Source: Candidatus Electrothrix yaqonensis (GTDB lineage: Bacteria > Desulfobacterota > Desulfobulbia > Desulfobulbales > Desulfobulbaceae). Taken from it: a stretch of 32,000 nt of DNA. The stretch lies in assembly GCA_047651235.1 (NCBI GenBank), contig CP178758.1:2160001-2192000 (forward strand), written 5' to 3'. A program made the position numbers and the translations under genes. Under the pieces are notes generated by a model. That model searched no databases, was not told the origin of the DNA, and worked only from the letters and a program-made list of their open reading frames with translations. Shown here in pieces: positions 2,632 through 25,220 of this stretch; the stretch's first letter is position 1, and each line of letters begins with the position of its first letter.

Positions 2632-4842
2632 ATGATGCAAAGTACAAAGATATTCATTGCCGCCCTAATTCTTCACGTTGCATCGGCCGCTGTCTGCTGC
2701 GGAGGCTGTCTGTCGGGAAACTGCAAAAACGGTTCAGGAAAGCTGACTGATCATACAGGTCGGGTGTATGAGGGTGAATTTAAAAACGGTTTTCTCTGGG
2801 GGCGCGGCAAGCTGGTCACCGGGGACGGTCTGCAGTATGAAGGGGAATTTGTCAGAGGAAGATTTCACGGGTTCGGCAGCCTGAAAAGTCCGGATGGCCG
2901 ATCGTATATCGGTATATTTAAAAACGGGGTGATTGACGGAGAGGGTACCCTGAAAGAGCCGGACGGAACCAAGTATCAGGGAGAATTCGAGCTTGGTCGG
3001 TTTCACGGCAAAGGTATCCTGATTTATCCGGACGGTCGAAGGTATATCGGTGATTTCCGGAATAATTCTCTGCACGGTAAAGGGAAGATGACCATACCGG
3101 GCAACGGCAGCTTTGAAGGGGAGTTCCGTGACGGCCGACCGGATGGTAAGGGGGTGCGTCGTTACCCTGACGGTACGGTCTATATAGGGAGTTATGTCGG
3201 GAAATACCGGCAGGGCTACGGTATTCTCCAGATGCCTGACGGCAGTCGCTATGAAGGATATTTTGACAAGGATCTGTATAACGGACGCGGGACGCTGAAA
3301 GAAAAGAACGGACGGACGTACATCGGCACTTTTCTTGCCGGAGCCATCACCGGGCAGGGTACAGTGACCTGGCCGGATGCTGATCAGCAGTATAAAGGAG
3401 AGCTGCTCAACGGCCTGCCGCACGGAGAAGGCACCATGACGTACAATGACGGTTCCCGATATATAGGACAATGGGAAAAAGGTATCCGGGTCGGGGTCGG
3501 CAAGCTGGAGTATGCGGACGGACGGGTCTATGAAGGCCTTTTTTCTAAGAATGAGCCGGTCGGGCCAGCGCGGGCTGTGAAACCGGCTGCCGATGTTGCT
3601 GCTGCGGCTGAACCGGAACCCGAATCCGAGCTGGTATCTGCACCTGAACAGCCTGCTCCTCCCCCAGTACAGGCGGAGAGTAGGCCGAAAAAGGCTGAAG
3701 CACCAGAACAATCCGATGATTCAGTCCCGGCTTCCGGGCAGCAGAGGAATCAGATCGGGGAACAGGAGCAGGCCCGACGTGAGTCGGTTGTCATCATAGA
3801 GGAAGGGGCATATCCCTCGGAGCCGGAGGAAGAGCCTGCTGGACTGACCGAAGCAGAGACGGAAATACGTGTTCAGTATCCTGTTGTCGATGCAGATACA
3901 GATGCTGCGGCAGAGTCTTCTGCGCAGAGTGATCAGATCGCTGAACAGGATGTTCTGAATGAACCGGTGGATGAATCGGTGGATGAGCCAGTTGTGATCA
4001 TAGAGGAAGGGCCGTATTCCGCAGAAGAGGAGGTGGAACCAGCTGAGCCGTCTGAAGCTGAGAGGGAAACGACGGAAATACGTATTCAGCAGCCAGTTGC
4101 AGCCACTGCTACAAAGTCGGAGGCTGCGTTGGTTCCGGCTGATGCATTACTTGAACAGGAAGAACCTGATGAGGGAGCACCTGCCGGAGAACAGCTTGTC
4201 CTGATCAATGAAATTCCCTATTCCACTGAAACAGGCGAAGAGCTGCACGGCAGCACGTTCAGCGGAGCAACCGGGGCTGACGGGGTTGACCTGCCGGATG
4301 CCTCGCATTATCAGGGGGAATTTAAAAACGGCAAGATGGAAGGCCGGGGTATGCTGCGGCTGGCCGACGGGGAAAGCTATGAAGGCGAGTTTTCCAACGG
4401 GAAATTTCACGGCCAAGGCACGTATATTTTTGCGGACGGTCGGCAGTATACAGGATCGTTCAGGAAAGGGGAGCGGGAGGGAAAAGGCGTTTTCACTTAT
4501 CCGGACGGCTCGTCCTATAAAGGAGAATTTGTCAAAGGCGTCTTTGCAGGAAAGGGGCTCTATACCTTTCCGGACGGTAGTTATTATACAGGCGAATTTT
4601 CCGACGGCTTTTTCTCCGGTCAGGGGACATTGATTTACAAAAGCGGAAAAAAATACAGCGGGGAATTTAAAAATGATCTGCCGCATGGGCAGGGCGTGCT
4701 TACCTCTGCTGACGGCACCGTATATAAAGGGATGTTCAAATCCGGCCGCAGGAACGGCAAAGGCATAATTACCTATCCGGACGGACGAGTCGTCAAGGGT
4801 ACCTTTAAAAACGATGAGCTGGTCAGCAAGGATAAAAAATAA
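2632..4842 (+). CDS. Secreted MORN-repeat protein with a central acidic/Pro-rich repeat linker
   Basis: N-terminal signal-like helix (KIFIAALILHVASAAV). About 11-12 tandem 23-aa MORN units (YxGEFxxGxxxGxGxxxxxDGxx) come first, then a ~245-aa E/P/A-rich segment, then another 7-8 MORN units. Confidence 0.8.
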   Translation: MMQSTKIFIAALILHVASAAVCCGGCLSGNCKNGSGKLTDHTGRVYEGEFKNGFLWGRGKLVTGDGLQYEGEFVRGRFHGFGSLKSPDGRSYIGIFKNGVIDGEGTLKEPDGTKYQGEFELGRFHGKGILIYPDGRRYIGDFRNNSLHGKGKMTIPGNGSFEGEFRDGRPDGKGVRRYPDGTVYIGSYVGKYRQGYGILQMPDGSRYEGYFDKDLYNGRGTLKEKNGRTYIGTFLAGAITGQGTVTWPDADQQYKGELLNGLPHGEGTMTYNDGSRYIGQWEKGIRVGVGKLEYADGRVYEGLFSKNEPVGPARAVKPAADVAAAAEPEPESELVSAPEQPAPPPVQAESRPKKAEAPEQSDDSVPASGQQRNQIGEQEQARRESVVIIEEGAYPSEPEEEPAGLTEAETEIRVQYPVVDADTDAAAESSAQSDQIAEQDVLNEPVDESVDEPVVIIEEGPYSAEEEVEPAEPSEAERETTEIRIQQPVAATATKSEAALVPADALLEQEEPDEGAPAGEQLVLINEIPYSTETGEELHGSTFSGATGADGVDLPDASHYQGEFKNGKMEGRGMLRLADGESYEGEFSNGKFHGQGTYIFADGRQYTGSFRKGEREGKGVFTYPDGSSYKGEFVKGVFAGKGLYTFPDGSYYTGEFSDGFFSGQGTLIYKSGKKYSGEFKNDLPHGQGVLTSADGTVYKGMFKSGRRNGKGIITYPDGRVVKGTFKNDELVSKDKK
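3787..4260 (+). repeat. 204-nt (68-aa) tandem repeat inside the MORN-protein linker
   Basis: Units begin at 3787 (gttgtcatcatagaggaagg), 3991 (gttgtgatcatagaggaagg) and 4195 (cttgtcctgatcaatgaaat, degenerate). The matching peptides are VVIIEEGAYPSEPEEEPAGLTEAETEIRVQYPV, VVIIEEGPYSAEEEVEPAEPSEAERETTEIRIQQPV and VLINEIPYSTETGEE. Confidence 0.7.
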
Positions 4843-9795: not shown

Positions 9796-10833
9796 ATGGG
9801 GAAAAGTTCTGCAGACAGACACTCGCTTGCAGGCCGCAGATGGCGGAATTTCAGAAAGAACCGGCGTGGATTCTATAGCCTTCTGCTCTTCGGTACCCTG
9901 TTCCTGCTGTCTCTTTTTGCCGAGGTGCTGAGCAACGACAAACCGCTGCTTGTGGTCTACGAAGGCAGCTCTTATTTTCCCCTGCTCAAAGCATATCCGG
10001 AGACCGTGTTCGGCGGTGATTTTGATACAGAGACGGATTACCGGGATCCGTATATGCTGGACAAGCTCACCACTGGCGGCAATAGGGTCTATTTCCCCCC
10101 GAATCCGTACAGCTACGGTTCCATCAATCTCAGGCTTGACCGGCCGGTTCCGGCGCCGCCGTCAAAGGACAACCTTCTCGGTACAGATGACCGGGGCAGG
10201 GATGTGCTGGCCCGGCTGATTTACGGGTTCCGTCTGTCCGTGCTGTTCGGCTTTGCCCTTACCCTGATCGGCACCCTGACCGGTATTGTTGCCGGAGCAG
10301 TCCAGGGTTATTTCGGCGGCAGAACCGATCTGATCTTCCAGCGTTTCATCGAGATCTGGAGTGCTATGCCGGAACTGTATCTGCTGATTATTTTTGCCTC
10401 GATCTTCAAGCCCAACGTACTTCTGTTGCTGATCTTGCTTTCCCTGTTCGGCTGGATGGGATTGTCCGATTATGTCCGGGCCGAATTTCTCAAAGGGCGG
10501 AATATGGAGTATGTCAAGGCGGCCAAGGCCCTGGGAGTGGGCAATCTGACCATTATGTACCGGCACCTGCTGCCTAATGGCATGACCCCGGTGATCACCT
10601 TTCTGCCGTTCCGGATGTCCGGGGCCATTCTGGCCCTGACCAGTCTGGATTTTCTCGGTCTGGGTGTGCCACCGTCAACCCCGAGCCTCGGCGAGCTGCT
10701 GAATCAGGGCAAGGCGAACATTGAAGCCTGGTGGCTTTCCCTGTCCACCTTTGCCGTGCTGGTCGGTATGCTGGTCCTGCTGATTTTTATTGGAGAGGCC
10801 CTACGAGAGGCGTTTGATCCGCGGAAGCAGTAA
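9796..10833 (+). CDS. yejE: ABC peptide-type importer permease, YejE-like
   Basis: LLGTDDRGRDVLARLIYGFR and the EAA-loop region EYVKAAKALGVGNLTIMYRHLLPN. Start chosen at ATG 9796, which is preceded by GGAAGGGAGA. The track start at 9730 overlaps yejB and lacks an SD. Confidence 0.75.
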   Translation: MGKSSADRHSLAGRRWRNFRKNRRGFYSLLLFGTLFLLSLFAEVLSNDKPLLVVYEGSSYFPLLKAYPETVFGGDFDTETDYRDPYMLDKLTTGGNRVYFPPNPYSYGSINLRLDRPVPAPPSKDNLLGTDDRGRDVLARLIYGFRLSVLFGFALTLIGTLTGIVAGAVQGYFGGRTDLIFQRFIEIWSAMPELYLLIIFASIFKPNVLLLLILLSLFGWMGLSDYVRAEFLKGRNMEYVKAAKALGVGNLTIMYRHLLPNGMTPVITFLPFRMSGAILALTSLDFLGLGVPPSTPSLGELLNQGKANIEAWWLSLSTFAVLVGMLVLLIFIGEALREAFDPRKQ

Positions 10834-10947
10834 GGAACGACGATTTTAATAACTACGGAAAATTGGGTAATTGACAGTCTGTTCTGGCAGAAACTGAACC
10901 AACGTAACAGGCAGTACGCAGGCTGCGCAAGAGAAAATCGGCAACGG

Positions 10948-10977
10948 TTGACAACGGGTGTGCGTACCGGATAAGTT
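10948..10977 (+). promoter_or_regulatory. Sigma70-like promoter candidate (TTGACA-N18-TAAGTT)
   Basis: TTGACA at 10948-10953, an 18-nt spacer, then TAAGTT at 10972-10977. This is ~45 nt upstream of the strong SD at 11011-11018. Confidence 0.3.
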
Positions 10978-11023
10978 GGAGTTAAACCCGTCTGAAATTG
11001 ATTAAATAAAGGGAGAGGAATTC

Positions 11024-11197
11024 ATCACTACCAAACACAAACCGCCGCTGGCCGACCCCCAGCCGCCTGACTCTAAAACAAGCCGTGAAAAGCTGACAAA
11101 GAAAGTCATAGCAGAACTGCGCGAATTTCGGCGCAGACACAAATGCAACGGCCTTTCCATCCGGGATATGCTTGACGTTGACGCATGCAGACGGTGA
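11024..11197 (+). CDS. Candidate 57-aa ORF with a non-canonical ATC start
   Basis: The strong SD AAGGGAGAGG (11009-11018) sits 5 nt before ATC 11024. The frame is open to TGA 11195-11197 (ITTKHKPPLADPQPPDSKTSREKLTKKVIAELREFRRRHKCNGLSIRDMLDVDACRR*). The frame opens only at 11006, after a TAA at 11003-11005, and has no ATG, GTG or TTG start before an internal ATG eight codons from the stop. Confidence 0.25.
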   Translation: MTTKHKPPLADPQPPDSKTSREKLTKKVIAELREFRRRHKCNGLSIRDMLDVDACRR

Positions 11198-11207
11198 GGG
11201 CTGCCCG

Positions 11208-11265
11208 CTATTTATAACTCCGCCCCAACGGCGTCACTGCCTCAAACTGGAGTGGTTCCTGATGC
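11208..11265 (-). pseudogene. Relic of an sdhA/frdA 3' end (last ~18 codons plus stop)
   Basis: The reverse complement reads [18 protein letters not shown]. The intact gene ends [18 protein letters not shown] at 12808-12865. Hand alignment gives ~46/58 identical nt. Confidence 0.75.
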
Positions 11266-11278
11266 TCCCGGAGCGCAA

Positions 11279-11545
11279 TCACTTATCTTTCCGCATAAAA
11301 AACGTCCATATTTCCGTAAGGACACCGGCAAGCAGCAGAATCGGTACGGTAACCGCGAAATTTACATAGAGGAGAATATATATTGCCCCGTAATATTGGT
11401 GGTATTGATCAAGGGAGGCGGTTCCTGAAAGGATACCGGTATATTCTCGGAATCCGAGCAGATGCGCCCCGGCAAACAGCAGAGCAAGCAGGATCGCATA
11501 GGCTGTGAACCGTTGACCGATAAAACGTACAAGCAGCGATTTCAT
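11279..11545 (-). CDS. Small integral membrane protein (88 aa, 2-3 TM)
   Basis: Hydrophobic helices (AYAILLALLFAGAHLL, AIYILLYVNFAVTVPILLLAGVL). Its start overlaps the upstream gene's stop by 1 nt (TAATG), which suggests translational coupling. Confidence 0.6.
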   Translation of the reverse strand: MKSLLVRFIGQRFTAYAILLALLFAGAHLLGFREYTGILSGTASLDQYHQYYGAIYILLYVNFAVTVPILLLAGVLTEIWTFFMRKDK

Positions 11546-12729
11546 TATTTCGTCCTCCTCCGAACTTCATCCCACAGCGGCCCCTCCACCATGGAATACA
11601 GGATTACCGCATCTCCCACCGGATTACTGGCCTGGTACCGCAGGTACCCTTCTTTTTCTTTGGGAAACGCTGCAAAATTGAGCGAGGTCAGTAGCGATGT
11701 GAAAAACTCGGTGTCATCAAAGCCTGCTGCGGCAATAAACGCCAACCCACTGGCACCGGCACTGGCATCAAGCCAGGGAACCACAGGACCTGAGTCCACA
11801 TCCGTCGTGCCCGGAGAACTTTCCGCCCATTCACGGGAATAGCCGAAACCGAGAAAAGAAGCGGCAAGTTCCTTCTTTGCCCGACGATACTGATCCTCCG
11901 CAAAGGCCTTATCCACGATCTGCAGCATATGGCAGGCCATCCAGATGCTGCTTCCCTCAGGGCTGAAGCCGCTCGGAGAGGGTGTTCCGTCTACGCCAAA
12001 GGCGGAGATAAGCAGACCGGTTTTCAGATCGGTCAGTTTCTGTTTTGCTGTTTCAAGCCAAGAAGCGAAGAAGGCCGAGTGATCCGTGCCGTCCAGCACG
12101 TCAGCCATCCGGATGGCGGCAAGACTGACAGTATTACAGAAAATCCAGCATTCATCAGGATAGCTTTCAGCGCATAATACCGGACTCTGCTGCATACGGG
12201 CAATCATGATTTCCACCCGTTCGGCGAGCAGCGGCACGTAAGCAGTTTTTTCTTCCACCAACCTGCGGGCCGCCAGCATCAGGGCGATCTCGCCGTCAAT
12301 AAACTGGCTGCGGGGCGGCCGCATGACCCATGCATCATTATGGCCGTAGCCGAGCAGAAAAGAAGACATCCCCTGCTCACGCTCGATACGTATCGTATTC
12401 TCAAGGATAGTATCCATAATATCCAGCGCCTGCTCTTTATAGCCCGTATCCCTGATTGCCATATTGGCAAGTGCCAGCACAAAATAGGTGCGGCTCATGA
12501 AATCCCATTCCGGATTCCGCTCCTGCATTTTGGCGAGTTCAGCGGCCCGGAGCTGCGGATTCGTCCAGATATCCAAATGACGGGCGGCGATCATGGCGGC
12601 CTTCGGCGGAACTCCTTGGTCGCTGCGATACTGGCTGATGTCCGGCCTGTACAGAAAATGCAAGCACGGCAGCCAGATACCGGCCGCGACACACAACATG
12701 GTACATTTCAATAAAAAGTCTCTCAACAT
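11545..12729 (-). CDS. Membrane-anchored (alpha/alpha)6-barrel-like protein resembling linalool dehydratase/isomerase (Ldi family)
   Basis: N-terminal hydrophobic anchor (CTMLCVAAGIWLPCLHFL). The segment CAESYPDECWIFCNTVSLAAIRMADVLDGTDHSAFFASWLETAKQKLTD aligns by eye with my recollection of the Castellaniella Ldi active-site stretch [46 protein letters not shown]. The assignment is from memory only. Confidence 0.45.
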   Translation of the reverse strand: MLRDFLLKCTMLCVAAGIWLPCLHFLYRPDISQYRSDQGVPPKAAMIAARHLDIWTNPQLRAAELAKMQERNPEWDFMSRTYFVLALANMAIRDTGYKEQALDIMDTILENTIRIEREQGMSSFLLGYGHNDAWVMRPPRSQFIDGEIALMLAARRLVEEKTAYVPLLAERVEIMIARMQQSPVLCAESYPDECWIFCNTVSLAAIRMADVLDGTDHSAFFASWLETAKQKLTDLKTGLLISAFGVDGTPSPSGFSPEGSSIWMACHMLQIVDKAFAEDQYRRAKKELAASFLGFGYSREWAESSPGTTDVDSGPVVPWLDASAGASGLAFIAAAGFDDTEFFTSLLTSLNFAAFPKEKEGYLRYQASNPVGDAVILYSMVEGPLWDEVRRRTK

Positions 12730-12807
12730 ATCAACCTAAAACGTTTTGTAATCCAATGAATTCTACCCCGGATTCTGGTTTCTGAAATTTCGGCAGGCAG
12801 TGCCGGG

Positions 12808-14736
12808 TTATTTGTAACTCCGTTGCGAAGGCGTAACCGCCTCGAACTGGAGCGGCTCCTGATGCAGGAAAGGCCGCTGCCCCACCCCTCTATGCTCCCA
12901 GACAGTCACATGGGAGTAATTTGCATCATCCCGTTTAGCCTCATTCTCCTCGGTCTGGCTTTCCTCGCGCAGATGGCAGCCACAGGACTCTCTGCGCTCC
13001 AGGGCATCAAGCACCATGACCTCAGCGAATTCCAGAAAATCCGCCACCCGTCCGGCTCTCTCCAGAGACTGGTTCAGATCCTGGCCGCTGCCGGGCACGT
13101 ACACGTTGGCGTAAAATTCCTCCCGGATCGCCGGAATCTCGGCCAGGGCTTTAGTCAGTCCGGCCTGATTGCGGGCCATACCGCAGTTGTCCCAGAGCAG
13201 GGCACCGAGTTTACGGTGATAATAATCCACCGGCTGCGTGCCCGCTTTTTTCCAGTCCCGATTACGTAAGAGCCGGGCAATTCGGCCTGCAACCTCCTCT
13301 TCCGCCTCGGCAAAAGCCGGGGCCTCCACAGCAGGACGGTCAAATCCGGCCTGGGCCAGATAATTGCCCATTGTCGCGGGCAGGATGAAATACCCGTCCG
13401 CCAGTCCCTGCATGAGTGCGCTGGCACCGAGCCGGTTGGCCCCGTGATCGGAGAAATTGGCCTCCCCGATGACAAACAGGCCGTCCAGAGTGGACTGGAG
13501 CTGATAGTCTACCCACAAGCCGCCCATGGTGTAATGCACTGCCGGGTAGATCATCATGGGTTCCCTGGCCGGATCAGCAGCAGTGATCTTTTCATACATC
13601 TGGAAGAGGTTGCCGTATTTCTGGAGAATGACTGCCAGCCCGTCCCGCGCAATGGCCTCGGAAAAATCCAGATATACAGCCTGCCCGGTCTTGCCCACAC
13701 CCAAGCCCTGATCGCAGACCTCTTTGGCATTGCGGGAGGCCACGTCACGGGGCACCAGATTGCCGAAACCGGGGTATTTGCGCTCCAGATAGTAATCCCG
13801 GTCCGCTTCCGGGATGTCCGCCGGGCCGCGATGGTCATCTTTGTTTTTCGGCACCCAGACCCGCCCGTCATTACGCAGGCTTTCGCTCATCAGGGTCAGT
13901 TTGGATTGGTAGTCGCCATGCACCGGAATGCAGGTCGGATGAATCTGGACAAAACAGGGATTGGCAAACCCGGCACCCCGCTTATGCGCCCGCCAGGCCG
14001 CCGTGACATTGCAGGCCATTGCGTTGGTGGACAGATAGAAGACATTGCCGTAGCCGCCCGTGGCCAGCACCACTGCGTTGGCTGCGTACCGCTCCAGCTG
14101 GCCGGTGATGAGGTTACGGACAATGATCCCCTGTGCCTTGCCGTTGATGACCACCAGATCCATCATCTCCCGGCGCGGGTAGATGGTGACTTTTCCGGCC
14201 GCGACCTGACGCATCAGGGAGGAATAGGCGCCCAGGAGCAGCTGCTGGCCGGTCTGACCACGAGCATAAAAGGTGCGCGAAACCTGCGCTCCGCCAAAGG
14301 AGCGGTTGGCCAAAGTGCCGCCGTATTCGCGGGCAAAGGGTACGCCCTGAGCAACGCAGTGGTCAATGATCGCGTTGGAAACCTGGGCCAGACGAAAGAC
14401 ATTGGCCTCGCGGGAACGGAAATCCCCGCCCTTGATGGTGTCGTAGAAGAGGCGGAAGATGGAATCGCCGTCGTTCTGGTAATTCTTGGCCGCGTTGATG
14501 CCGCCCTGAGCAGCAATGGAATGGGCCCGACGCGGGCTGTCCTGAATACAGAAGGACTTGACGTTGTAGCCCAGTTCAGCCAGTGAAGCCGCTGCCGAGG
14601 CCCCGGCCAAGCCGGTACCCACCACAATGATTTCGTACTTGCGCCGGTTGGCAGGGCTGACCAGCTTATTGCTGAAGCGGCAGTTATCCCATTTTTCGTG
14701 CAGCGGGCCGGGGGGGATTTTTGGGTCGAGGAACAT
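12808..14736 (-). CDS. sdhA: Succinate dehydrogenase / fumarate reductase flavoprotein subunit (type-B, Bacillus/Wolinella-like)
   Basis: FAD fold [22 protein letters not shown], the covalent-FAD His region [73 protein letters not shown] and [11 protein letters not shown]. It is collinear with B. subtilis SdhA as remembered. Confidence 0.92.
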
Positions 14737-14876
14737 GGTTTTCAGTCAGGAATTTGTTCAGGGAGGTCGGAAAAATGTCGGGTGAGCTTGCCCTGCCAGC
14801 TGCGGGAGGACACTAAACCGTTGTAGGCTAATACCGCACTTGCTGCAAGCATATTTTTTCCTCGATTGGTTGTTTT

Positions 14877-16187
14877 TCACCAGCTACCTGATGCGCCTCC
14901 GCCACCACTGGACCCACCACTGGACCCACCGCTGGAACCGCCGCTGGAACCGCCGGAGCCGGTTCTTGAACTGCGATTGACACTCGCTATTGTTTGATAG
15001 TACTGATGCTGACAAGTACTGTAAGTACATTTCATGCGGGCCAGTCCGTTGCGGTTGATTGTTGGAGGTCTAACAACTTTTTCTTCCACAGTTACGTATC
15101 TGCATTTCGTACATTTATAATATTTCTTTAACGTCGTCCTCAGCATAGCACGTTTTTTATAATAGCCGCATGACTTGCACTGCCATACGTCATACTCCAC
15201 AGAACCAAGTTCTTCCTCTTTTTTTTCGCCGTCATTCAGCAGACTGCTTTTTTCATCTTTTTTTAGCAGTAGAGTTAATCTGTTATTACATTTCTTGCAC
15301 CGACGGGCACGGAATCTTATATACTGAAAAATATTTCCAGCTACTGGAAAAAGTGCCAACCAACTACAAATAAATAACGTTACAGCTGCATCGCCATGAG
15401 CGATAAATACCATAAAACTTGTGTAAACTTTTGAGTTTGAAAATTGTGCCTGCAAGTTCACAAAACATAAAAAGACCAAGAAGAAAAACGTTGAACCTGT
15501 TGTGATGGCTAAAATATTAGGATATTGTTTTATGCAACGAGTAGCTACCAGAACCGTCAGCAGGAACAGCCCTAAATATAACGGAATCAGATGAACAAAC
15601 TTAGAAATCTGCACTTTTCTCTCCAATGTCCGCAGAAACTTCGGAGCAGAATCTTTCACTCCTTTTGTCTGCTCCGGGTTCTTTTGCAGAATTTCGGCAA
15701 TTCGTTCCGCCCCGCTGATGATCCCCTCGTCAAAATTTCCGGCCTTAAAGGCGGGGATTATATTCTTCGCGATAATATTGCCGCAAAGCCCGTCTGTCAG
15801 CAGCGGTTCCAGCCCGTAGCCGACTTCAATCCGTACCCTACGCTCATTAGGCGCAATCAGAAACAGCACCCCGTTGTTGGTGTCGGCCCGCCCTATGCCC
15901 CATTCGTTGAACAGATTATTGGCGTATTCCTCTATGGTTTCTCCGTGCAGAGAAGAAACGGTCACGATATCCAGTTCCGCCGTGGTCGCCTCAGCGACTC
16001 CGGCAGTTAGCTGCTCCAGTTGCGCTTCCTGCTCCGGTGAAAGCAGAGAGGCAAAATCATAGACACGTTTCCCGGATACGGGCTGGGGATATGCGGAACA
16101 GGCGGGAGCAACCCAGCAAATCAGAGCTGCAAGAAAAACAAGACATGCCAGCCAAGTTGATTGTATCAATAGATGGTACTTTCTCAT
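14877..16187 (-). CDS. TPM-domain (YgcG-like) protein with signal peptide, multi-TM region, cytoplasmic 4xCxxC zinc-ribbon region and Gly/Ser tail
   Basis: TPM pattern: VYDFASLLSPEQEAQLEQL...ELDIVTVSSLHGETIEEYANNLFNEWGIGRADTNNGVLFLIAPNERRVRIEVGYGLEPLLTD. The C-terminal part has ~4 TM helices, then CKKC...CKSC...CTKC...C..C, and ends (GGSS)4GGGGASGSW. Start set at ATG 16187 (MRKYHLL..., preceded by GGAGGG). The upstream 186 nt of the track ORF cover the sdhA relic. Confidence 0.75.
   Translation of the reverse strand: MRKYHLLIQSTWLACLVFLAALICWVAPACSAYPQPVSGKRVYDFASLLSPEQEAQLEQLTAGVAEATTAELDIVTVSSLHGETIEEYANNLFNEWGIGRADTNNGVLFLIAPNERRVRIEVGYGLEPLLTDGLCGNIIAKNIIPAFKAGNFDEGIISGAERIAEILQKNPEQTKGVKDSAPKFLRTLERKVQISKFVHLIPLYLGLFLLTVLVATRCIKQYPNILAITTGSTFFFLVFLCFVNLQAQFSNSKVYTSFMVFIAHGDAAVTLFICSWLALFPVAGNIFQYIRFRARRCKKCNNRLTLLLKKDEKSSLLNDGEKKEEELGSVEYDVWQCKSCGYYKKRAMLRTTLKKYYKCTKCRYVTVEEKVVRPPTINRNGLARMKCTYSTCQHQYYQTIASVNRSSRTGSGGSSGGSSGGSSGGSSGGGGASGSW
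14903..14961 (-). repeat. 12-nt tandem repeat encoding (GGSS)n
   Basis: ccaccactggac x2, then ccaccgctggaa, ccgccgctggaa and ccgccggagcc. This is in-frame coding microsatellite-like repetition at the 3' end of the TPM gene. Confidence 0.8.
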
Positions 16188-16372
16188 TCTGCCCTCCATA
16201 AAAATATTCAGAAAGAATTTAAGTTGCGGGATATTGATCGTACTTAATATCTTGTTGTGAAATATTTTTCTTCGGTCAGCAAGTGGGAATTCTGTTTCGC
16301 AAAAATGAAAGTTAGTACATAGGGAGGAGGGAAAGCCTTTTGGGACGGCCCTGAAATAGGGAGGATCCATCA

Positions 16373-16442
16373 CCTATTCCTGAGGCGGCAGCTGTCCCAT
16401 TTTTCTGCAGCGGTCCGGGGGGATTTTGGGATTCACATAACA
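16373..16442 (-). pseudogene. Relic of an sdhA/frdA 5' end (start codon plus ~23 codons, frameshifted)
   Basis: 16373-16442 aligns with 14665-14736, the first 72 nt of the intact sdhA. The shared core is ctgaRgcggcagYtRtcccattttt(c)gtgcagcggKccggggg(g)gatttttggg...acat. There are two 1-nt indels and roughly 80% identity by hand. Confidence 0.7.
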
Positions 16443-16446
16443 TCTG

Positions 16447-16512
16447 CTCTGTGAATTTTTAGTTACTTGAAAAGCACTTACTCTGTGAATTTAGTTACTT
16501 GAAAAGCACTTA
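16447..16512. repeat. Tandem duplication (34 + 32 nt) spanning the 3' end of the 73-aa gene
   Basis: ctctgtgaatttttagttacttgaaaagcactta (16447-16480) is followed directly by ctctgtgaatttagttacttgaaaagcactta (16481-16512). The second copy contains the last codons and stop of the 16491..16712 gene. Confidence 0.85.
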
Positions 16513-16712
16513 ATATGATATTCGTAAATTTTCTCCTTCTCCTGAAGAGTTAAGTCGTTAACCCACTTTAACTTTTCACTGAAATTCATTTTTCTTGCCT
16601 CTCTCAAAGGACAATTTGGATTTTTTGGATTTTTCCGCCCAACAGGGCATGCTTCTGCCAAAGAGATAAGCATAGCATTATATTCATCTGCAGAATAGCT
16701 ATTTCTTGTCAT
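16491..16712 (-). CDS. Small Cys-containing hypothetical protein (73 aa)
   Basis: AT-rich ORF with CPVGRKNPKNPNCPLR and a C-terminal HIKC. I recognise no family. It is transcribed divergently from the kinase operon. Confidence 0.45.
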   Translation of the reverse strand: MTRNSYSADEYNAMLISLAEACPVGRKNPKNPNCPLREARKMNFSEKLKWVNDLTLQEKEKIYEYHIKCFSSN

Positions 16713-17111
16713 TTTACCGCAATATCAGTTGATTAGCTGCGTAAATCCTTGCAGGCGACGCCAGTCACAGAGCGTTTAAATTCTCATTCCTAAGCAGGCA
16801 AACATGGAAAACCGAATAGTTACTCTGTCAATATCAACCTTTAACTTTTTCTAATTAAAAAGTAAACAGGAAACACCAGTTGACAGGATGGAATGTACCC
16901 ATCCCGGTATCACATTCCAGAATCAAACCGTGCAGCGATACGGGTTACAGAGCGGGGTTGAAGGTACGAATCCCAATTGCCTGTTTTCTCATCTGTCCTC
17001 TGCCCTCTTCAAACCGAACACTTGATTCAGACAGGGTATTTTTTCCGACACAGACTCTGTTACGCGCTGATACTGATTTGAAAATCACGCACCGCCATCA
17101 ACCTCTTGCAT

Positions 17112-17140
17112 CTTGCATTTGCAGGCACGGAACTGTATTC
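17112..17140 (+). promoter_or_regulatory. Sigma70-like promoter candidate for the kinase/ATPase operon (TTGCAT-N17-TATTCT)
   Basis: TTGCAT at 17112-17117, a 17-nt spacer, then TATTCT at 17135-17140. This is ~100 nt upstream of ATG 17247. Confidence 0.3.
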
Positions 17141-17246
17141 TAAAAAATACGCAGCAGGAAAGGAACAGTATGCGTTCTGTATTTTTTATGCTACCCTGCT
17201 TCCGGCGGCAGGAGGAAGGAGACCCAACAGGAGGAGGCGATACAGC

Positions 17247-18749
17247 ATGGCTCAGGTACGCAAGGCCAAAAACAGGAACGGAACCTCTGTCGAATATGTT
17301 GATGAGATCATCGGTTCCGGCGGGATGAAGGATGTTTATTTCACCCCGGACCGCAAGAATGTTGTTGCTTTCTTCCGGGACAAGCAGGATCGTCAGGCTC
17401 TGGAACGCCTTGAAATGATCACCGGCACCTATCGTGAAAAAATTTTCAATCAGGACGGCGGTGCGTACTGGGAGAACCTGTTCCGCTGGCCCACCGAGCT
17501 GGTTGAAGATGAGGATGGCAAAGTGGGTGTGATTGTGCCAACCTATCAGGATCATTTCTTTTTTACCACCGGTTCCATTAATAACGATTTTCTGCAGATT
17601 AAAGGCAGAGAAAAAGAGGGCAAATGGTTTGCTTCGCCAACCAACCGAAACCAGTATCTTGACCCTGCGGAACGCGGCACCTGGCTGGACTACCTGCGTA
17701 TCTCCATTCTGCTCAGCCGGGCGGTGCGGCGGATGCACGCGGCAGGGCTGGCCCATTCCGACCTCTCGTATAAAAATGTCCTGATCGATCCGGTCGGCGG
17801 CAATGCCTGTATTATTGACATTGACGGCCTAGTGGTGCCGGGGAAATTTCCGCCTGATGTGGTGGGCACGCCTGATTTTATTGCTCCGGAAGTCATTGCC
17901 ACGGCCCATCTGGACAGGCAGGATCCGCAGCGGAAACTGCCGTCCATCTATACCGACCGCCATGCCCTGGCCGTGCTGATCTACATGTACCTCCTTCTGC
18001 GCCATCCCTTACGCGGGGATAAGGTGCATGATCTTGACGAGCCGCAGCGCGATGAAGACCTGTCCATGGGCGAGCGCGCCTTATTTGTTGAGCATCCCAC
18101 GGATCAGTCCAACCGGATCAAAACAGAGTATCTCAGGCCCCTGGAAAAACCGTGGAAAGATACAGCCGCCCTGCCCTGTCAGATCGTCGGCCCGTATCTG
18201 GAAAAATTGTTTCACCAGGCCTTTATTGACGGGCTGCACTGTCCGGAAAAACGGCCCACAGCCGATGAATGGGAACAGGCTCTGGTCAGGAGCGTGGATC
18301 TGCTTCAGCCCTGCGTCAATCCCGAATGCGCCCAGAAATGGTATGTGTTCGATAATACAAAATCCCCGAAATGTCCCTTCTGCGGCACCAGATACACGGG
18401 CAAGCTGCCGGTGCTGAATCTGTACTCCAGCCGGCATGGCGGCAAGTTTCTGCCGGATAATCACCGCCTGATGGTCTATACCGGTCAGTCGCTTTTTCGG
18501 TGGCATGTGAACCGGACAGTGGTGCCCAACGAACGCCTGACTCCAAAAGACCGGCAGCGGGTCGGGTATTTCATCTTTCACAACAACAACTGGCTCTTGG
18601 TCAATGAACGGATGCCCGGCTTAATTGACCTGAGTACAAAGCAGCCGGTTCCGGCGGGCGGTAAGATTGTGCTTAAAGAGGGCCGCCAGATTTTGTTTTC
18701 CAAAGAAAACGGCGGTCGACTGGCTCTGGTCCAGCTTGTGGATGCGTAA
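17247..18749 (+). CDS. Atypical Ser/Thr protein kinase with C-terminal zinc ribbon and FHA-like beta-sandwich
   Basis: Kinase motifs: IGSGGMKDVY (Gly loop), HSDLSYKNVLID (catalytic loop), IIDIDG (DFG-equivalent) and GTPDFIAPEV (APE). The Zn ribbon CVNPEC...CPFC follows, then a tail (GQSLFRWHV...FHNNNWLLVNERMPGLIDLSTKQPVPAGGKIVLKEGRQILF) with an FHA-like pattern. Start set at ATG 17247, after GGAGGAGG. Confidence 0.8.
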   Translation: MAQVRKAKNRNGTSVEYVDEIIGSGGMKDVYFTPDRKNVVAFFRDKQDRQALERLEMITGTYREKIFNQDGGAYWENLFRWPTELVEDEDGKVGVIVPTYQDHFFFTTGSINNDFLQIKGREKEGKWFASPTNRNQYLDPAERGTWLDYLRISILLSRAVRRMHAAGLAHSDLSYKNVLIDPVGGNACIIDIDGLVVPGKFPPDVVGTPDFIAPEVIATAHLDRQDPQRKLPSIYTDRHALAVLIYMYLLLRHPLRGDKVHDLDEPQRDEDLSMGERALFVEHPTDQSNRIKTEYLRPLEKPWKDTAALPCQIVGPYLEKLFHQAFIDGLHCPEKRPTADEWEQALVRSVDLLQPCVNPECAQKWYVFDNTKSPKCPFCGTRYTGKLPVLNLYSSRHGGKFLPDNHRLMVYTGQSLFRWHVNRTVVPNERLTPKDRQRVGYFIFHNNNWLLVNERMPGLIDLSTKQPVPAGGKIVLKEGRQILFSKENGGRLALVQLVDA

Positions 18750-21578: not shown

Positions 21579-22592
21579 ATGATAAACCATGCGCGATTTT
21601 TTTTTATACAGCGAGATAACAATCCTTTACGAAAAGAGGCATTTACCGCTTCTTTCCTCGGCAAACTGCATCCGGCCCGGCTCCCGCATCTGCAGCGCGG
21701 GAGCTGCTGTCTGGCCCGGTTACTCCGGGCATCCCTTGCCGAACTCCCGGTTTCCGGTAATGTCCTGCTCATCGGTCTGACAGAATCCGGCATTGTTCCT
21801 TCTTTTCTGATGTATCTGGAAGCCTGTCAATTAAACATTCCATGCCGATGGATCTGTTCAACCCGCCGGCTAGGTGAATCCGGGGTCGTTTTTGAGGAAA
21901 CACACTCGCACAGCCCGAATCATACCCTACCGATACCGGAGGCCAGTTTCTCGGAAGTCTGGATTGTCGAAGATGAAATCACCACAGGCCGGACAATACA
22001 GAATCTCCTGCACCAGCTCCAGGATCATGTTGCCGCCCAGATCTTCCGCATATTTTCTCTGGTGGATTTCCGGTCTGCACAGCAGCAGCAAGGTTTTTTA
22101 TCGTTGTTGGATGATCAGACAACAACATATCTTTTTCATACGGCCGTCCATTTGTCCGATATGCAGGGCGACAGCGCTGACTATCCGGATGACTTGGCAG
22201 AAAAAAGCACATATTCATCCGGATATCCTGAATATCTGCTCCCGAAGTTAGCCCCGTCATGCGGTCTGCGATGGAATCAGATACCGCCGGAATCTGCCGA
22301 TGCAACTCTGTTTGTTCTTGGGGAAGCAGTGCATACAGCAGTGCTGCTGGTGGCTGCCGGGAAATTCCGGGATTTTCAGCACATCACCCTCAGTCCGTGG
22401 CTGGTGGATGCATGCAGTATCAGGAGCAGAATAGACCTGCCCGGAAAGCATTATCTCTATAATACAACGAAGCAGGAACTCCGGTCGCCTGTCTTTCTCC
22501 TGCACGATCCGGCAGATCAGGCGATGAGCAGCAAAGTACACAGGGAGCTGGAAGGACAGGGCATACCTGTTCAGCAACTGCACCTTTTATAA
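21579..22592 (+). CDS. Ter-associated phosphoribosyltransferase (PRTase_2 + TRSP-type architecture)
   Basis: PRPP-binding loop VWIVEDEITTGRTIQNLL. Upstream are FLGKLHPARLP and LLIGLTESGIVPS. The C-terminal ~150 aa extension is consistent with the TRSP domain seen C-terminal to this PRTase class in Ter loci. The first in-frame start is 21579, and no SD is evident. Confidence 0.65.
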   Translation: MINHARFFFIQRDNNPLRKEAFTASFLGKLHPARLPHLQRGSCCLARLLRASLAELPVSGNVLLIGLTESGIVPSFLMYLEACQLNIPCRWICSTRRLGESGVVFEETHSHSPNHTLPIPEASFSEVWIVEDEITTGRTIQNLLHQLQDHVAAQIFRIFSLVDFRSAQQQQGFLSLLDDQTTTYLFHTAVHLSDMQGDSADYPDDLAEKSTYSSGYPEYLLPKLAPSCGLRWNQIPPESADATLFVLGEAVHTAVLLVAAGKFRDFQHITLSPWLVDACSIRSRIDLPGKHYLYNTTKQELRSPVFLLHDPADQAMSSKVHRELEGQGIPVQQLHLL

Positions 22593-22620
22593 TTTCTACA
22601 ACCCTCAGCAATCAGATACC

Positions 22621-23622
22621 ATGCAGCAGGCAATCCTTCCGGATGCGGAAAACAATTTCTGGCAACAGTATATTTATGTCGATCTGCGGGAAGAGGTGCA
22701 TCCTTTTAACGAAATGCACCGCTTCCGCAGATTGGAACAGGCCTACACCGGCGAAAACACCTTCTGGTCCATTCCTTCTCCGGAACCGGATCTGGATGAT
22801 ACCTTCTGGCAGCATGTGCATGACCAGCTGGACAATAAACAGATCCGGAGGGCAGCACAGCAGCTGGCTGCCGTCATTCTACAGTGGGAAGCGGATCCGG
22901 AGCAGCTTATTTTTGTCGCCATTCTCAGGGCCGGGGTGCCTATTGCAAAGTGGCTCTGTCAGATGCTGCCCGGAGCAGTGAGTGCCGCCATATCGCTTTT
23001 TGTCGGCATCGGCATTGACCGGCAGGCCCTGGCCCGGCTGCAGGCAGATTTCCCGGACCGGAAGATTGTTTTTGTTGACGGTTGGACAGGGCGCGGCGGG
23101 GTTGCCAGAGAACTTGCCCGGCTTGATAAAGGGCCTTTGGCGGTGCTCAATGATCCCTGGGGCTGGGCAGATTTTTCCGGCATTCAGGAGGATATATTCT
23201 GCCCTTCCGCCTGTTTCACCGGCCTGACAACGCTTGGTTTTTCCAGAACCTTTTTTGTGGATGAGCAGCATTTCTTTGCTGCGTACAGATTTCCGGAATC
23301 CCACACCCGCAAAGATCTGGTTGATGCTTGGTGCACAGCCGGACCTGCACAGCCGACCCGCCCTGCTGCGGAAAAATGCAGACATTTTCATCAGGAAACC
23401 GAGCTGCGTATCCACAGCAATGAAGTCTGCCGGGCCTTGATTAATGCTGCGCCCAAGACCCTCTTTTTTACGGATGACGCCCGATATGCTGAGGAGCACT
23501 TCCCTCTGCTGCTGCTTCTGGCGGAACAGCGGGGCGTACCGGTGGAGTATAATCAGACATTTTTAAATAAATATCGTACCCGCGCTGCCTGTTCTCTGCG
23601 TATTGAACAGCTGAAAGCCTAA
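22621..23622 (+). CDS. Ter-associated phosphoribosyltransferase, PRTase_1 type (family often mis-annotated as cysteine protease StiP)
   Basis: LIFVAILRAGVPIAKWL and the PRPP-loop-like IVFVDGWTGRGGVAREL. Size (~330 aa) and its position next to the other PRTase match the Ter biosynthetic module as I remember it. Confidence 0.6.
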   Translation: MQQAILPDAENNFWQQYIYVDLREEVHPFNEMHRFRRLEQAYTGENTFWSIPSPEPDLDDTFWQHVHDQLDNKQIRRAAQQLAAVILQWEADPEQLIFVAILRAGVPIAKWLCQMLPGAVSAAISLFVGIGIDRQALARLQADFPDRKIVFVDGWTGRGGVARELARLDKGPLAVLNDPWGWADFSGIQEDIFCPSACFTGLTTLGFSRTFFVDEQHFFAAYRFPESHTRKDLVDAWCTAGPAQPTRPAAEKCRHFHQETELRIHSNEVCRALINAAPKTLFFTDDARYAEEHFPLLLLLAEQRGVPVEYNQTFLNKYRTRAACSLRIEQLKA

Positions 23623-23672
23623 GATTATACTTGTATAAAATGGATAAATAAAACAAGAACAAGGAGGCTGAT

Positions 23673-24428: not shown

Positions 24429-24458
24429 ATATCCAACCCCAACTCGCTGGATCTGCTG

Positions 24459-25205
24459 ATGAGAAAAAACACACTGCATTCGCAGAATAAAGCCGTTGCC
24501 GTTGATCTTGACGGTACCTTGGTGCATACGGTGCCGGGGGAATATACCATACCGGGGCGCTCCGGAAACTGTTATCTGTCGCATCGGGCAGTTGAGTTGT
24601 TAGCCGAAATCAGCCGCACCCTGCCGACCTTTATTACAACCGGCAGGAATGCGGCGAGCGTTCAGAAGATAATCCGGCATCTTGAAAAGGTACGTTTTGT
24701 GGGCTTTATCCTGGAAAATGGTTTTGTGGTCAAAAAGGACCTCCGCAGCCCTGATCCTCGAAAAGAGAAGTGGAAATTTGCAGACAAGGTACCGCCGGAC
24801 TGGGAACCCATTCCGGGGTATGAGCGTTCTGCCGGGTTTATCCTGCCCAGAGGACAGAAAAATCCGGCAGAGCTTGTCCGGAATCTATTAAAAGAGACTC
24901 GGGAGCAGGGGTATATCCATTTAAACCAACCGAAAATTTTTGTCTATCCTCAGGAGCCGGATAAAATGCAGGGGCTTGCCGAATTCAATGTCCGGCCGCA
25001 CATAGCACTGGGGAACGATATCAACGATACCCAGCTGATGCAGGCAAGTACCTATCCGGTTACTTTACAGGCTGCACATTCTTCCATCAAAAAAATAGCA
25101 GAAAAAAAGGACGGATACTGTTCACCCTTTGCCGACCATGCCGCAGCAGAGGATATGCTGCGCTGGGCCTGCACCAAGTTATCTGCCCTGTCTTCCTCGT
25201 CCTGA
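24459..25205 (+). CDS. HAD-superfamily phosphatase (Cof/IIB-like)
   Basis: Motif I VAVDLDGTLV, motif II ITTGRN, motif IV LGNDINDTQLM. Confidence 0.75.
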   Translation: MRKNTLHSQNKAVAVDLDGTLVHTVPGEYTIPGRSGNCYLSHRAVELLAEISRTLPTFITTGRNAASVQKIIRHLEKVRFVGFILENGFVVKKDLRSPDPRKEKWKFADKVPPDWEPIPGYERSAGFILPRGQKNPAELVRNLLKETREQGYIHLNQPKIFVYPQEPDKMQGLAEFNVRPHIALGNDINDTQLMQASTYPVTLQAAHSSIKKIAEKKDGYCSPFADHAAAEDMLRWACTKLSALSSSS

Positions 25206-25220
25206 CCTTCCCCTGATCTC

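What the first reader, a model, noticed from the sequence alone, without database searches (positions are those of the whole stretch)
11208..16442. Intact sdhA is bracketed, beyond two gene cassettes, by degenerate copies of its own 3' and 5' termini
Reading the minus strand, the order is as follows. First comes a 70-nt frameshifted copy of the sdhA start region (16373-16442, matching 14665-14736). Next is a 1.6-kb segment carrying the AT-rich TPM gene, then the intact sdhA (14736-12808). Then comes a 1.5-kb segment carrying the Ldi-like and 88-aa genes. Last is a 58-nt copy of the sdhA stop region (11208-11265, matching 12808-12865). That copy still translates to [18 protein letters not shown]. 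Both copies are ~80% identical to the intact gene by hand alignment, so they are not fresh duplications. Two readings are possible. In the first, the outer pieces are the displaced native ends of sdhA, and each cassette arrived with a surrogate gene end, as islands inserting into tRNA or protein-gene termini do. In the second, they are the remains of an older sdhA allele whose interior was replaced by a 5.1-kb block. No integrase or transposase is present in the window, so the mechanism is not obvious.
Basis: seen in the sequence. Interest (0 to 1): 0.65.

Follow-up and report, generated by a model that had tools for sequence, protein, structure and literature searches.

The report
Displaced sdhA gene ends flank cassettes
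In a cable bacterium (Candidatus Electrothrix), foreign gene cassettes have been spliced in at both ends of the respiratory gene sdhA, each arriving with a fresh copy of the gene's end and pushing the old end outward as a short relic; related genomes show the same thing, so it is a recurrent way of adding genes without an integrase.

Summary
Window 11208-11265 copies the last 57 nt plus stop of sdhA (81%, ungapped). Window 16373-16443 copies its first ~70 nt (~85%, two 1-nt deletions). Alignment scores are 59 and 70, against a shuffle maximum of 27. About 150 unrelated sdhA loci reach at most 32/29.

The organism is a Candidatus Electrothrix. Its relatives carry sdhC-sdhA-sdhB with different small cassettes wedged at the two sdhA junctions: Uma2, a GajA-like ATPase with RelB, MazEF, a VOC gene, and unknown ORFs.

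Relics recur in those relatives:
- L002 and L166 keep an old sdhA 3' end still joined to the older downstream gene.
- L002 and L003 keep 5' relics with other cassettes.
- L173 has the same Ldi-orf88-relic joint as the window.
- L170 has sdhA-Ldi-orf90 with no relic and no TPM gene.

Junction positions vary and no integrase is present.

Best reading: repeated "terminal displacement". Incoming DNA anchors by homology in sdhA, brings a cassette plus a replacement gene end, and strands the resident end. The single 5.1-kb block reading is disfavoured.

It is a new variant of a known kind (Rhs/T6SS C-terminal displacement). Interest is moderate.

The parts
11208..11265 (-). Displaced 3' terminus of sdhA: the last 18 codons plus stop, encoding [18 protein letters not shown].
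   Evidence: It is 81% identical to 12808-12865, with score 59 against a shuffle maximum of 27. Nine of its 12 differences from the intact end are at third codon positions. L173 has an orthologous relic.
11266..11282 (-). Linker of about 18 nt (GTGATTGCGCTCCGGGAG) between the orf88 stop and the relic. Its GTG overlaps the orf88 stop (GTGA) and opens a 24-codon frame that runs through the relic.
   Evidence: Sequence. The same linker length and frame are present in L173.
11279..11545 (-). 88-aa hydrophobic ORF, the partner gene of the Ldi-like gene within the downstream cassette.
   Evidence: no Pfam match. It is co-linear with Ldi in L170 (78% aa) and in L173 (at least 90% aa).
11545..12729 (-). 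Ldi-like gene (PF18566), the main gene of the downstream cassette.
   Evidence: Pfam E=3.5e-10. The family is 57-88% identical across several phyla. The gene sits directly 3' of sdhA in L170 and L173 as well.
12730..12807 (-). 78-nt spacer between the sdhA stop and the Ldi start. It travels with the cassette.
   Evidence: It is present in L170 (69% identity) and in L173 (94% identity).
12808..14736 (-). Intact sdhA/frdA flavoprotein gene (642 aa), the recombination anchor.
   Evidence: Pfam FAD_binding_2 plus Succ_DH_flav_C. It is 88-91% aa identical to the sdhA genes of the sdhCAB operons in Electrothrix L166 and L169. Identity to L170 by codon position 1/2/3 is 0.92/0.96/0.57, which indicates purifying selection.
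14737..14876 (-). 140-nt spacer between the TPM stop and the sdhA ATG. It is unique to this genome.
   Evidence: Homology to L170, L169 and L002 starts at -2 of the ATG.
14877..16199 (-). TPM-domain (YgcG-like) gene, the upstream cassette. Its central part is AT-rich.
   Evidence: Pfam E=1.2e-42. GC is 0.47 overall and 0.37-0.39 in the middle, against 0.53 for the window. The closest homologues are only 55-67% identical and lie in other contexts in Electrothrix, for example with LemA inside a split ABC operon in L171.
16373..16443 (-). Displaced 5' terminus of sdhA (ATG to about +72), frameshifted by two 1-nt deletions.
   Evidence: About 85% identical to 14667-14736, with score 70 against a shuffle maximum of 27. 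It is 87% identical to the 5' end of L002 sdhA.
16458..16517 (-). 32-nt tandem duplication of the 3' end plus stop of the 73-aa ORF, ending 3 nt before the relic's ATG. It may be a footprint of the same kind of event; its status is unclear.
   Evidence: Repeat D6 (28 nt, 93%); sequence.

Best explanation
Two separate 'terminal displacement' events at the ends of a resident sdhA.

How each event works (inferred). DNA from another cable-bacterium lineage carried a cassette next to sdhA. It paired with the resident sdhA through homology and was joined on its non-homologous side a few dozen bases inside the resident gene. The join could come from single-crossover integration of a circular intermediate that carries a short sdhA end plus the cassette. 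It could also come from homology-facilitated illegitimate recombination of a linear fragment. Either way the product is an intact sdhA with a replacement terminus, then the new cassette, then the stranded old terminus still attached to whatever lay beyond it.

In the window, the 3' event brought the spacer-Ldi-orf88 unit and left relic 11208-11265. The 5' event brought the TPM unit and left relic 16373-16443.

Once formed, each cassette sits between direct repeats of an sdhA end. In principle it can loop out as a circle, or recombine into any other sdhA allele. That would explain its patchy spread.

Shown: the relics, their significance, their recurrence in relatives, the nested order of stubs, the absence of a recombinase, and the variable junction positions.

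Inferred: the recombination pathway, the circular intermediate, the direction of transfer, and which of the two ends in each pair is donor and which is resident.
For: (1) The relics are highly significant and unique in the window.

(2) The organism is a Candidatus Electrothrix. More distant Desulfobulbales relatives have a tight sdhC-sdhA-sdhB operon. Cable-bacteria genomes carry different cassettes at the two sdhA junctions:
- L166: sdhC-sdhA-Uma2-sdhB.
- L169: sdhC-sdhA-AAA_21(GajA-like)-RelB-sdhB.
- L002: sdhC-orf114-relic5-3 ORFs-sdhA-Uma2-...-relic3-AAA_21-sdhB.
- L003: relic5-mazEF-sdhA.
- L004/L117/L126: sdhC-VOC-sdhA.

(3) The displaced 3' ends in L002 (11267-11418, score 111 against null maximum 31) and L166 (12388-12446, score 72 against 33) remain contiguous with the spacer and the start of AAA_21, exactly as that gene follows the intact sdhA in L169. 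This shows that the relic is the old end and that it kept its old neighbour.

(4) The stubs are nested in order: AAA_21, then Uma2 (L002, L166), then Ldi. L170 has a Uma2 5' stub right after orf90.

(5) L173 (92% DNA identity) has the same orf88-linker-relic joint. Its homology to the window stops exactly at the relic's stop codon.

(6) L170 has sdhA-Ldi-orf90 without TPM, and one-sided cases exist (L166, L003). The 5' and 3' events are therefore independent.

(7) Nine of the 12 differences between the relic and the intact 3' end are at third codon positions (8 synonymous codons, 2 changed). P is 0.004 against random placement, and about 0.04 by my own hand calculation after allowing for synonymous drift of the intact copy (for the counts). 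This suggests the relic diverged largely as part of a functional allele.

(8) No integrase or transposase is present in about 38 kb of the contig, and junction positions vary.

(9) There is published precedent. [quoted passage not shown] HFIR was proposed for T6SS effector-immunity arrays (PMC5361080). Single-crossover integration of circles that duplicates 109-950 bp of a gene end was observed experimentally in E. coli (PMC3240628).
Against: - No mosaic signal was found. The window sdhA is about 82% identical to every available relative along its whole length, and its terminal 60-70 nt show no distinct affinity. Donor and recipient parts cannot be told apart.
- The third-codon argument that the Ldi cassette is younger than the sdhA split (0.73 against 0.57) is confounded by a GC3 shift of sdhA in this lineage, from 0.54 to 0.71.
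- Microhomology at the junction (ATCAGG) is only suggestive.
- The model does not explain why sdhC and sdhB are absent from at least about 20 kb on the relic3 side and at least about 15 kb on the relic5 side. It also does not explain why the flank changes exactly after the relic's stop codon between the window and L173.
- The 5' relics in L002 and L003 are weak (scores 27-30 and 39).
- No TPM-sdhA donor arrangement was found.
Confidence: 0.55

Rival explanations
1. Single-block replacement. One 5.1-kb fragment, TPM-sdhA-Ldi-orf88, from another lineage replaced the interior of a resident sdhA. Only the resident gene's first ~70 nt and last ~58 nt were left.
For: - The window and L002 both have relics on both sides of an intact sdhA.
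- The intact gene is equally distant (~82%) from all sampled relatives, so a wholesale foreign origin cannot be excluded.
- The mostly synonymous differences between relic and intact end fit two different alleles.
Against: - It needs two illegitimate joins in one event, both landing just inside the gene ends.
- L170 carries sdhA-Ldi-orf90 with an unrelated upstream region, so TPM is not linked to that block.
- L166 and L003 show one-sided displacement.
- In L002 the 3' arrangement is shared with L166, which lacks the 5' one. The events are therefore separable.
Confidence: 0.15
2. Decayed integrase-mediated islands. Two small integrative elements used the 3' and 5' ends of sdhA as attB, carried surrogate ends in attP, and later lost their integrases, or were mobilised in trans.
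For: - The direct repeats of a gene terminus flanking foreign cargo are the classic attL/attR picture.
- The cargo in relatives is typical island content: TA modules, a GajA-like ATPase and Uma2.
- Integrative elements that leave partial target-gene repeats are known. Tycheposons are one example, recalled from my own knowledge; the search only located papers on them, and I did not read them.
Against: - No tyrosine or serine recombinase or transposase was found in any of the loci examined: window contig 1016-39421, L002, L003, L166, L169, L170.
- The repeat boundaries differ in every case: -17, -58 and about -80; +65, +72 and +85.
- The cassettes are only 1.5 kb.
- L170 has the same cassette with no repeat at all.
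Confidence: 0.12
3. In-situ duplication and decay. Local duplications of the sdhA ends arose in place by replication slippage or break repair. Unrelated DNA was captured between the copies, and the outer copies then drifted.
For: - A 32-nt tandem duplication with nothing inserted lies right next to the 5' relic (16458-16517). This shows that small local duplications do arise here.
- The 5' relic has frameshifts and looks neutral.
Against: - The differences in the 3' relic are biased to synonymous sites.
- In L173 the relic is nearly pristine.
- The same Ldi unit sits 3' of sdhA in three lineages whose downstream flanks differ, which indicates import together with sdhA sequence.
- The displaced ends keep older neighbours in a nested order.
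Confidence: 0.1
4. The 3' relic is kept for a function. A 24-codon ORF (11282-11208), translationally coupled to orf88, would encode the SdhA C-terminal 18 residues as a micro-peptide. Alternatively the relics serve as regulatory decoys.
For: - A GTG overlaps the orf88 stop (GTGA).
- The frame and length are conserved in L173.
- Eight of the 12 differences between the two relic copies are at third codon positions.
Against: - Only two sequences are available.
- Five of the 24 residues differ between them.
- L170 lacks the relic altogether.
- The pattern is equally well explained by an origin from functional alleles or by gene conversion from the intact end.
Confidence: 0.05

Closest known systems
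Rhs / CDI / T6SS effector 'C-terminal displacement' arrays (Jackson et al. 2009, PMC2935791; Kirchberger et al. 2017, PMC5361080)
   Same: - A conserved gene body acts as the homologous anchor.
- An incoming segment supplies a new 3' end plus downstream gene(s).
- The old 3' end, with its old downstream gene, is pushed outward in the same orientation and forms nested arrays of stubs.
- No integrase is involved.
- The proposed mechanisms are homologous recombination with circular intermediates, or HFIR.
   Different: - The anchor here is a housekeeping respiratory gene inside the sdhCAB operon, not a polymorphic toxin.
- The old and new termini encode the same peptide, so the payload is the neighbouring cassette and not a new protein tip.
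- Displacement occurs at the 5' end as well as the 3' end.
- The relics are very short (17-100 nt).
Genomic islands and integrative elements that target gene termini (tRNA, tmRNA and protein-gene ends; for example tycheposons, located but not read)
   Same: Foreign cargo lies between direct repeats of the target gene's end. The gene stays intact because the element supplies a surrogate end. Successive events can leave arrays of partial target copies.
   Different: No recombinase gene is present. The repeat boundaries vary between events. The units are very small, and they lie at both ends of the same gene.
Homology-facilitated illegitimate recombination and single-crossover integration of circles (PMC3240628 and the references cited in it)
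   Same: One homologous anchor plus one non-homologous join. Single crossovers of circles that carry part of a gene end duplicated 109-950 bp of that end around the insert in E. coli experiments.
   Different: Those are laboratory events in other species. Here the pathway is inferred from end products only. Classical HFIR mostly deletes recipient DNA and does not leave a terminal relic.
Defence-island / core-gene hotspots exchanged by flanking homologous recombination
   Same: Variable defence-like and toxin-antitoxin cargo (GajA-like ATPase, Uma2, MazEF, RelB) sits at a fixed position between conserved core genes and differs between close relatives.
   Different: The hotspot lies inside an operon, immediately at the start and stop codons of one gene, and it leaves duplicated gene termini.

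Membership tests
Integrase-mediated integrative element at a gene terminus | A site-specific recombinase (tyrosine or serine) is encoded in or next to the element. | tested here: not met
   Neither my Pfam scans nor the precomputed Pfam calls show a recombinase or transposase in window contig 1016-39421, in the ORFs I scanned next to sdhA in L002 and L003, or among the called genes near sdhA in L166, L169 and L170. The only one seen is an IS66 transposase about 9.6 kb downstream of sdhA, at the edge of L166.
Integrase-mediated integrative element at a gene terminus | Direct repeats (attL/attR) made of the target gene's end flank the insert. | tested here: met
   57 nt at 81% and about 70 nt at about 85%.
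Integrase-mediated integrative element at a gene terminus | The crossover position and core are the same in independent insertions at the same target. | tested here: not met
   The 3' relics start at about -17 (L166), -58 (window, L173) and about -80 (L002). The 5' relics end at about +65 (L002), +72 (window) and +85 (L003). L170 has no repeat.
C-terminal displacement arrays (Rhs/CDI/T6SS type) | An intact gene is followed, in the same orientation, by a fragment of its own 3' region that is still attached to older downstream gene(s). | tested here: met
   In L002 and L166 the order is relic3, spacer, AAA_21 start, as in the L169 sdhA-AAA_21 junction. In the window and L173 the order is Ldi-orf88-relic3.
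C-terminal displacement arrays (Rhs/CDI/T6SS type) | The anchor gene is a polymorphic toxin whose displaced tips encode different toxin domains with cognate immunity genes. | tested here: not met
   The anchor is SdhA (Pfam FAD_binding_2 and Succ_DH_flav_C). The relic and the intact end encode the same 18 residues apart from 2 changes.
Homology-facilitated illegitimate recombination product | A microhomology of 3-10 bp at the non-homologous joint. | tested here: inconclusive
   ATCAGG occurs both at sdhA -58 and just after orf90 in L170. An 18-nt linker of unknown origin lies between orf88 and the relic in the window and in L173.
Homology-facilitated illegitimate recombination product | A donor-derived stretch of the anchor gene adjoins the insert (a mosaic anchor). 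| tested here: inconclusive
   Sliding-window identity shows no segment closer to any sampled relative. The donors may be unsampled.
Integron gene cassettes | attC-type imperfect inverted repeats at cassette ends and an IntI integrase with attI. | tested here: not met
   There are no inverted repeats at the cassette borders, no IntI, and no Rfam match at E<=1.
Transposon or IS insertion with target-site duplication | Terminal inverted repeats, a transposase, and a short fixed-length target-site duplication. | tested here: not met
   No transposase and no terminal inverted repeats. The duplications are 17-100 nt and vary in length.

The most novel reading that the evidence does not exclude
Cable bacteria may have a general, integrase-independent route of gene gain. 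Conserved housekeeping genes would serve as two-ended landing pads. Cassettes flanked by short copies of a gene's start or stop region would loop out as circles and re-insert by homologous recombination into the same gene in other chromosome copies or in other lineages. Over time this would split operons such as sdhCAB and leave nested terminal relics. A bolder variant is that the 3' relic persists as a translated 24-residue SdhA-tail micro-peptide coupled to orf88.
Probability: 0.15. Interest if true: 0.75.

Novelty: new variant of a known kind. Interest (0 to 1): 0.48.

Why it matters
If correct, displacement by recombination is not limited to polymorphic toxin loci. It also operates on an ordinary metabolic gene, at both of its ends, in a lineage that cannot yet be grown in pure culture (PMC13064052, abstract listed).

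That would explain two things:
- how defence-like and toxin-antitoxin genes and other small genes enter cable-bacteria genomes without mobile-element machinery;
- why the sdhCAB operon is broken up in these organisms.

It also gives a simple sequence signature, a short degenerate copy of a gene's own start or stop region one cassette away. That signature can be searched for genome-wide to date and order acquisition events.

The practical caveat for annotators is that such relics are neither pseudogenes of a second sdhA nor assembly errors.

Tried and rejected
- Chance or low complexity: rejected by shuffles, self-BLAST and the control on about 150 other loci.
- Assembly artefact: rejected. The window's sdhA, oppC and orf88 proteins are also on record from an NCBI 3.74-Mb contig. 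The 3' joint recurs in another sample (L173).
- Known RNA families: no Rfam match at E<=1 in 10700-17300.
- Promoter and terminator scan: no enrichment over shuffles.
- Exact-protein look-ups for sdhA, oppC, the kinase and Ldi returned only the source contig.
- The metagenome scan gave only distant sdhA loci, plus two short relatives of L004.
- Flanks beyond the relics were compared with the sdhC-sdhA and sdhA-sdhB regions of relatives. Nothing was significant. A weak match of 17023-16931 to the L170 upstream region did not hold up in alignment. A tblastx hint that relic3 runs on into a Uma2 start was not significant.
- Mosaic or recombination breakpoints within sdhA: none detected.
- Using third-codon identity to date the Ldi cassette: confounded by a GC3 shift.
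- Whether the TPM cassette is next to sdhA elsewhere: the one context retrieved (L171) is different.
- A test for similar relics at the split ABC operon in L171: not convincing.
- PADLOC on the window cassettes (Ldi, TPM, orf88, orf73): no hits.
- Literature search for sdh or fumarate reductase in cable bacteria: nothing relevant found.

Full report
**1. The observation**

All positions are read on the minus strand. Window 11209-11265 is an ungapped 57-nt copy (81%) of the last 57 nt of sdhA (12809-12865). Window 16375-16433 is a copy (about 85-86%, two 1-nt deletions) of 14667-14726. With the stop codon and the start codon, the relics span 11208-11265 and 16373-16443. The 3' relic still reads [18 protein letters not shown].

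Local alignment scores are 59 and 70. Shuffles gave mean 19, sd 2, maximum 27. These are two of only three dispersed repeats in the whole window at E<0.01. The same test on about 150 sdhA loci from other bacteria never exceeded 29 (5') or 32 (3').

**2. Organism and normal context**

The sdhA protein belongs to a 90% cluster whose named members are Candidatus Electrothrix. The identical protein is also on record from an NCBI contig of 3.74 Mb.

More distant Desulfobulbales relatives have a tight sdhC-sdhA-sdhB operon. The window, and the contig from about 9.6 kb before the window start to its end, contain no sdhC or sdhB. No integrase or transposase is called in contig positions 1016-39421.

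**3. What relatives show**

In cable-bacteria genomes the two sdhA junctions are insertion hotspots.
- L166 (CP147990) has sdhC-sdhA-Uma2-sdhB.
- L169 (CP147989) has sdhC-sdhA-AAA_21-RelB-sdhB. The ATPase matches GajA/AriA-type defence models.
- L002 has sdhC-orf114-relic5-three ORFs-sdhA-Uma2-...-relic3-AAA_21-...-sdhB.
- L003 (Ca. Electronema aureum) has relic5 (75% over 52 nt, score 39 against null maximum 27), then mazEF, then sdhA.
- L004, L117 and L126 have a VOC gene between sdhC and sdhA.

The most informative cases are L002 and L166. In L002, positions 11267-11418 hold a degenerate copy of the last ~80 nt of sdhA, its stop, the spacer and the start of AAA_21. This is co-linear with the intact sdhA-AAA_21 junction of L169 (score 111 against null maximum 31). 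In L166, positions 12388-12446 hold the last 17 nt, stop, spacer and first 27 nt of AAA_21, right after Uma2 (score 72 against 33). The relic is therefore the old gene end, still attached to its old neighbour, and Uma2 arrived later together with a new gene end.

**4. The window's own cassettes in relatives**

L170 (sdhA DNA 90% identical to L169) has sdhA, a 78-nt spacer, Ldi and orf90. Its homology to the window runs from 2 nt before the ATG to the end of orf88 (83% over 3458 nt). It has no TPM and no relic3. Instead a 5' stub of Uma2 follows orf90 directly. In that lineage Ldi came after Uma2.

L173 (92% DNA identity to the window) has the sdhA end, spacer, Ldi, orf88, the same 18-nt linker and relic3. 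Its homology to the window ends exactly at the relic's stop codon, and the sequence beyond differs.

The TPM gene has only 55-67% identical homologues in Electrothrix. The one context retrieved (E. aestuarii, L171) has TPM-LemA inside a split ABC-transporter operon. TPM is compositionally foreign: GC 0.47, and 0.37-0.39 centrally, against 0.53 for the window. The Ldi gene is not.

**5. Nature of the relics**

Between relic3 and the intact end, 9 of 12 nucleotide differences are at third codon positions (8 synonymous codons, 2 changed codons). P is 0.004 against random placement. By my own hand calculation it is about 0.04 after allowing for synonymous drift of the functional copy (for the counts). 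L173's relic differs from the window's intact end by six synonymous changes and one changed codon (H to D). This suggests the relics are ends of once-functional alleles, or have been converted from them. It argues against copies that simply decayed in place.

Relic5 carries frameshifts and looks neutral. It shares states with both the window and the L002 alleles.

**6. Mechanism**

These are the shown facts:
- direct repeats of a gene terminus around each cassette;
- old termini that keep their old neighbours;
- a nested order of stubs;
- one-sided cases;
- variable junction positions (-17, -58, about -80; +65, +72, +85);
- no recombinase.

They fit 'terminal displacement' anchored by homology in sdhA. 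The route could be single-crossover integration of a circle that carries a short sdhA end plus the cassette, or homology-facilitated illegitimate recombination of a linear fragment.

Both routes have precedent. Rhs C-terminal displacement was proposed to work through circular intermediates (PMC2935791). HFIR was proposed for T6SS effector-immunity arrays (PMC5361080). Single crossovers that duplicated 109-950 bp of a gene end were seen experimentally in E. coli (PMC3240628).

The pathway itself is inferred. I found no mosaic breakpoint in sdhA. The microhomology ATCAGG is only suggestive.

**7. Rivals**

- A single 5.1-kb block replacement is not excluded for this genome. It is less parsimonious given L170, L166 and L003.
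- Decayed integrase islands fail on the missing recombinase and the variable boundaries.
- In-situ duplication plus drift fits the neighbouring 32-nt tandem duplication. It does not fit the synonymous bias or the shared cassette with different flanks.
- A functional micro-ORF through relic3 (11282-11208; frame conserved in L173) is a low-probability possibility.

**8. What remains unexplained**

- Where sdhC and sdhB are in this organism.
- Why the window and L173 diverge from the first base after the relic's stop codon.
- Why the junctions cluster within about 100 nt of the gene ends.
- My attempt to show that the Ldi unit is younger than the sdhA split (third-codon identity 0.73 against 0.57) is confounded by a GC3 shift of sdhA in this lineage.

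**9. Verdict**

It is a new variant of a known kind: displacement arrays, here at both ends of a housekeeping gene inside an operon, without an integrase, and recurrent in cable bacteria. Interest is moderate (0.48). It would rise if a genome-wide scan shows this is a general route of gene gain in these organisms.

Noticed in passing
window 16458-16485 and 16490-16517: A 32-nt tandem duplication (93%) of the 3' end plus stop of the 73-aa ORF. It ends 3 nt before the ATG of the sdhA 5' relic. It is a gene-end duplication with nothing inserted between the copies.
   Followed up: partly
window 17160-17210 (+): A 17-residue remnant of a PP2C-like phosphatase gene. In L174 that gene lies intact (454+ aa) directly upstream of the homologous kinase gene. 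In the window almost all of it has been lost.
   Followed up: partly
window 11208-11282 (-); L173 1554-1628: A GTG overlapping the orf88 stop (GTGA) opens a 24-codon frame ([24 protein letters not shown]) through the linker and the 3' relic. The same frame and length are intact in L173, and the differences are mostly at third codon positions.
   Followed up: partly
window 1-32000, plus L082 and L084 (contig 1016-39421): sdhA stands alone. No sdhC or sdhB lies within about 20 kb on one side and about 15 kb on the other, although close relatives keep sdhC...sdhA...sdhB. Ca. Electronema aureum (L003) and L170 also lack them nearby.
   Followed up: partly
L171 8895-17737 (Ca. Electrothrix aestuarii): An ABC sugar-transporter operon (binding protein, permease ... 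permease, ATPase) is split by about 7 kb of unrelated genes: TPM-LemA, HigB toxin, and a 799-aa repeat protein. This is another operon invaded by cassettes. No clear terminal relic was found there.
   Followed up: partly
window 11279-12729; L170 2303-3759; L173: The Ldi-like protein belongs to a strongly conserved family (57-88% identity across Desulfobacterales, Moduliflexus, Lentisphaerae, Planctomycetota and others). In all three cable-bacteria loci retrieved it is paired with a small ~88-90-aa hydrophobic ORF that overlaps its stop. Its function is unknown.
   Followed up: no
L166 3364-9183; L169 1-9255; L002 about 1700-3400: Very large, internally repetitive ORFs (up to 1,968 aa; repeats 83-98% identical) lie immediately upstream of sdhC in three cable-bacteria genomes.
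   Followed up: no
window 14877-16199: The central third of the TPM gene is AT-rich (GC 0.37-0.39). It encodes paired CxxC motifs, and the gene ends in a GGS-repeat tail. In E. aestuarii the homologue is next to LemA, but here it stands alone.
   Followed up: no
window 3780-3886 and 3984-4099: An internal direct repeat (about 110 nt, 71%) inside the 736-aa ORF that has no Pfam match.
   Followed up: no
window 21579-29142: A cluster of PRTase_2, StiP, HAD-like hydrolase and TerD genes (a Ter-stress-like module) lies downstream of a P-type ATPase and a Ser/Thr kinase.
   Followed up: no
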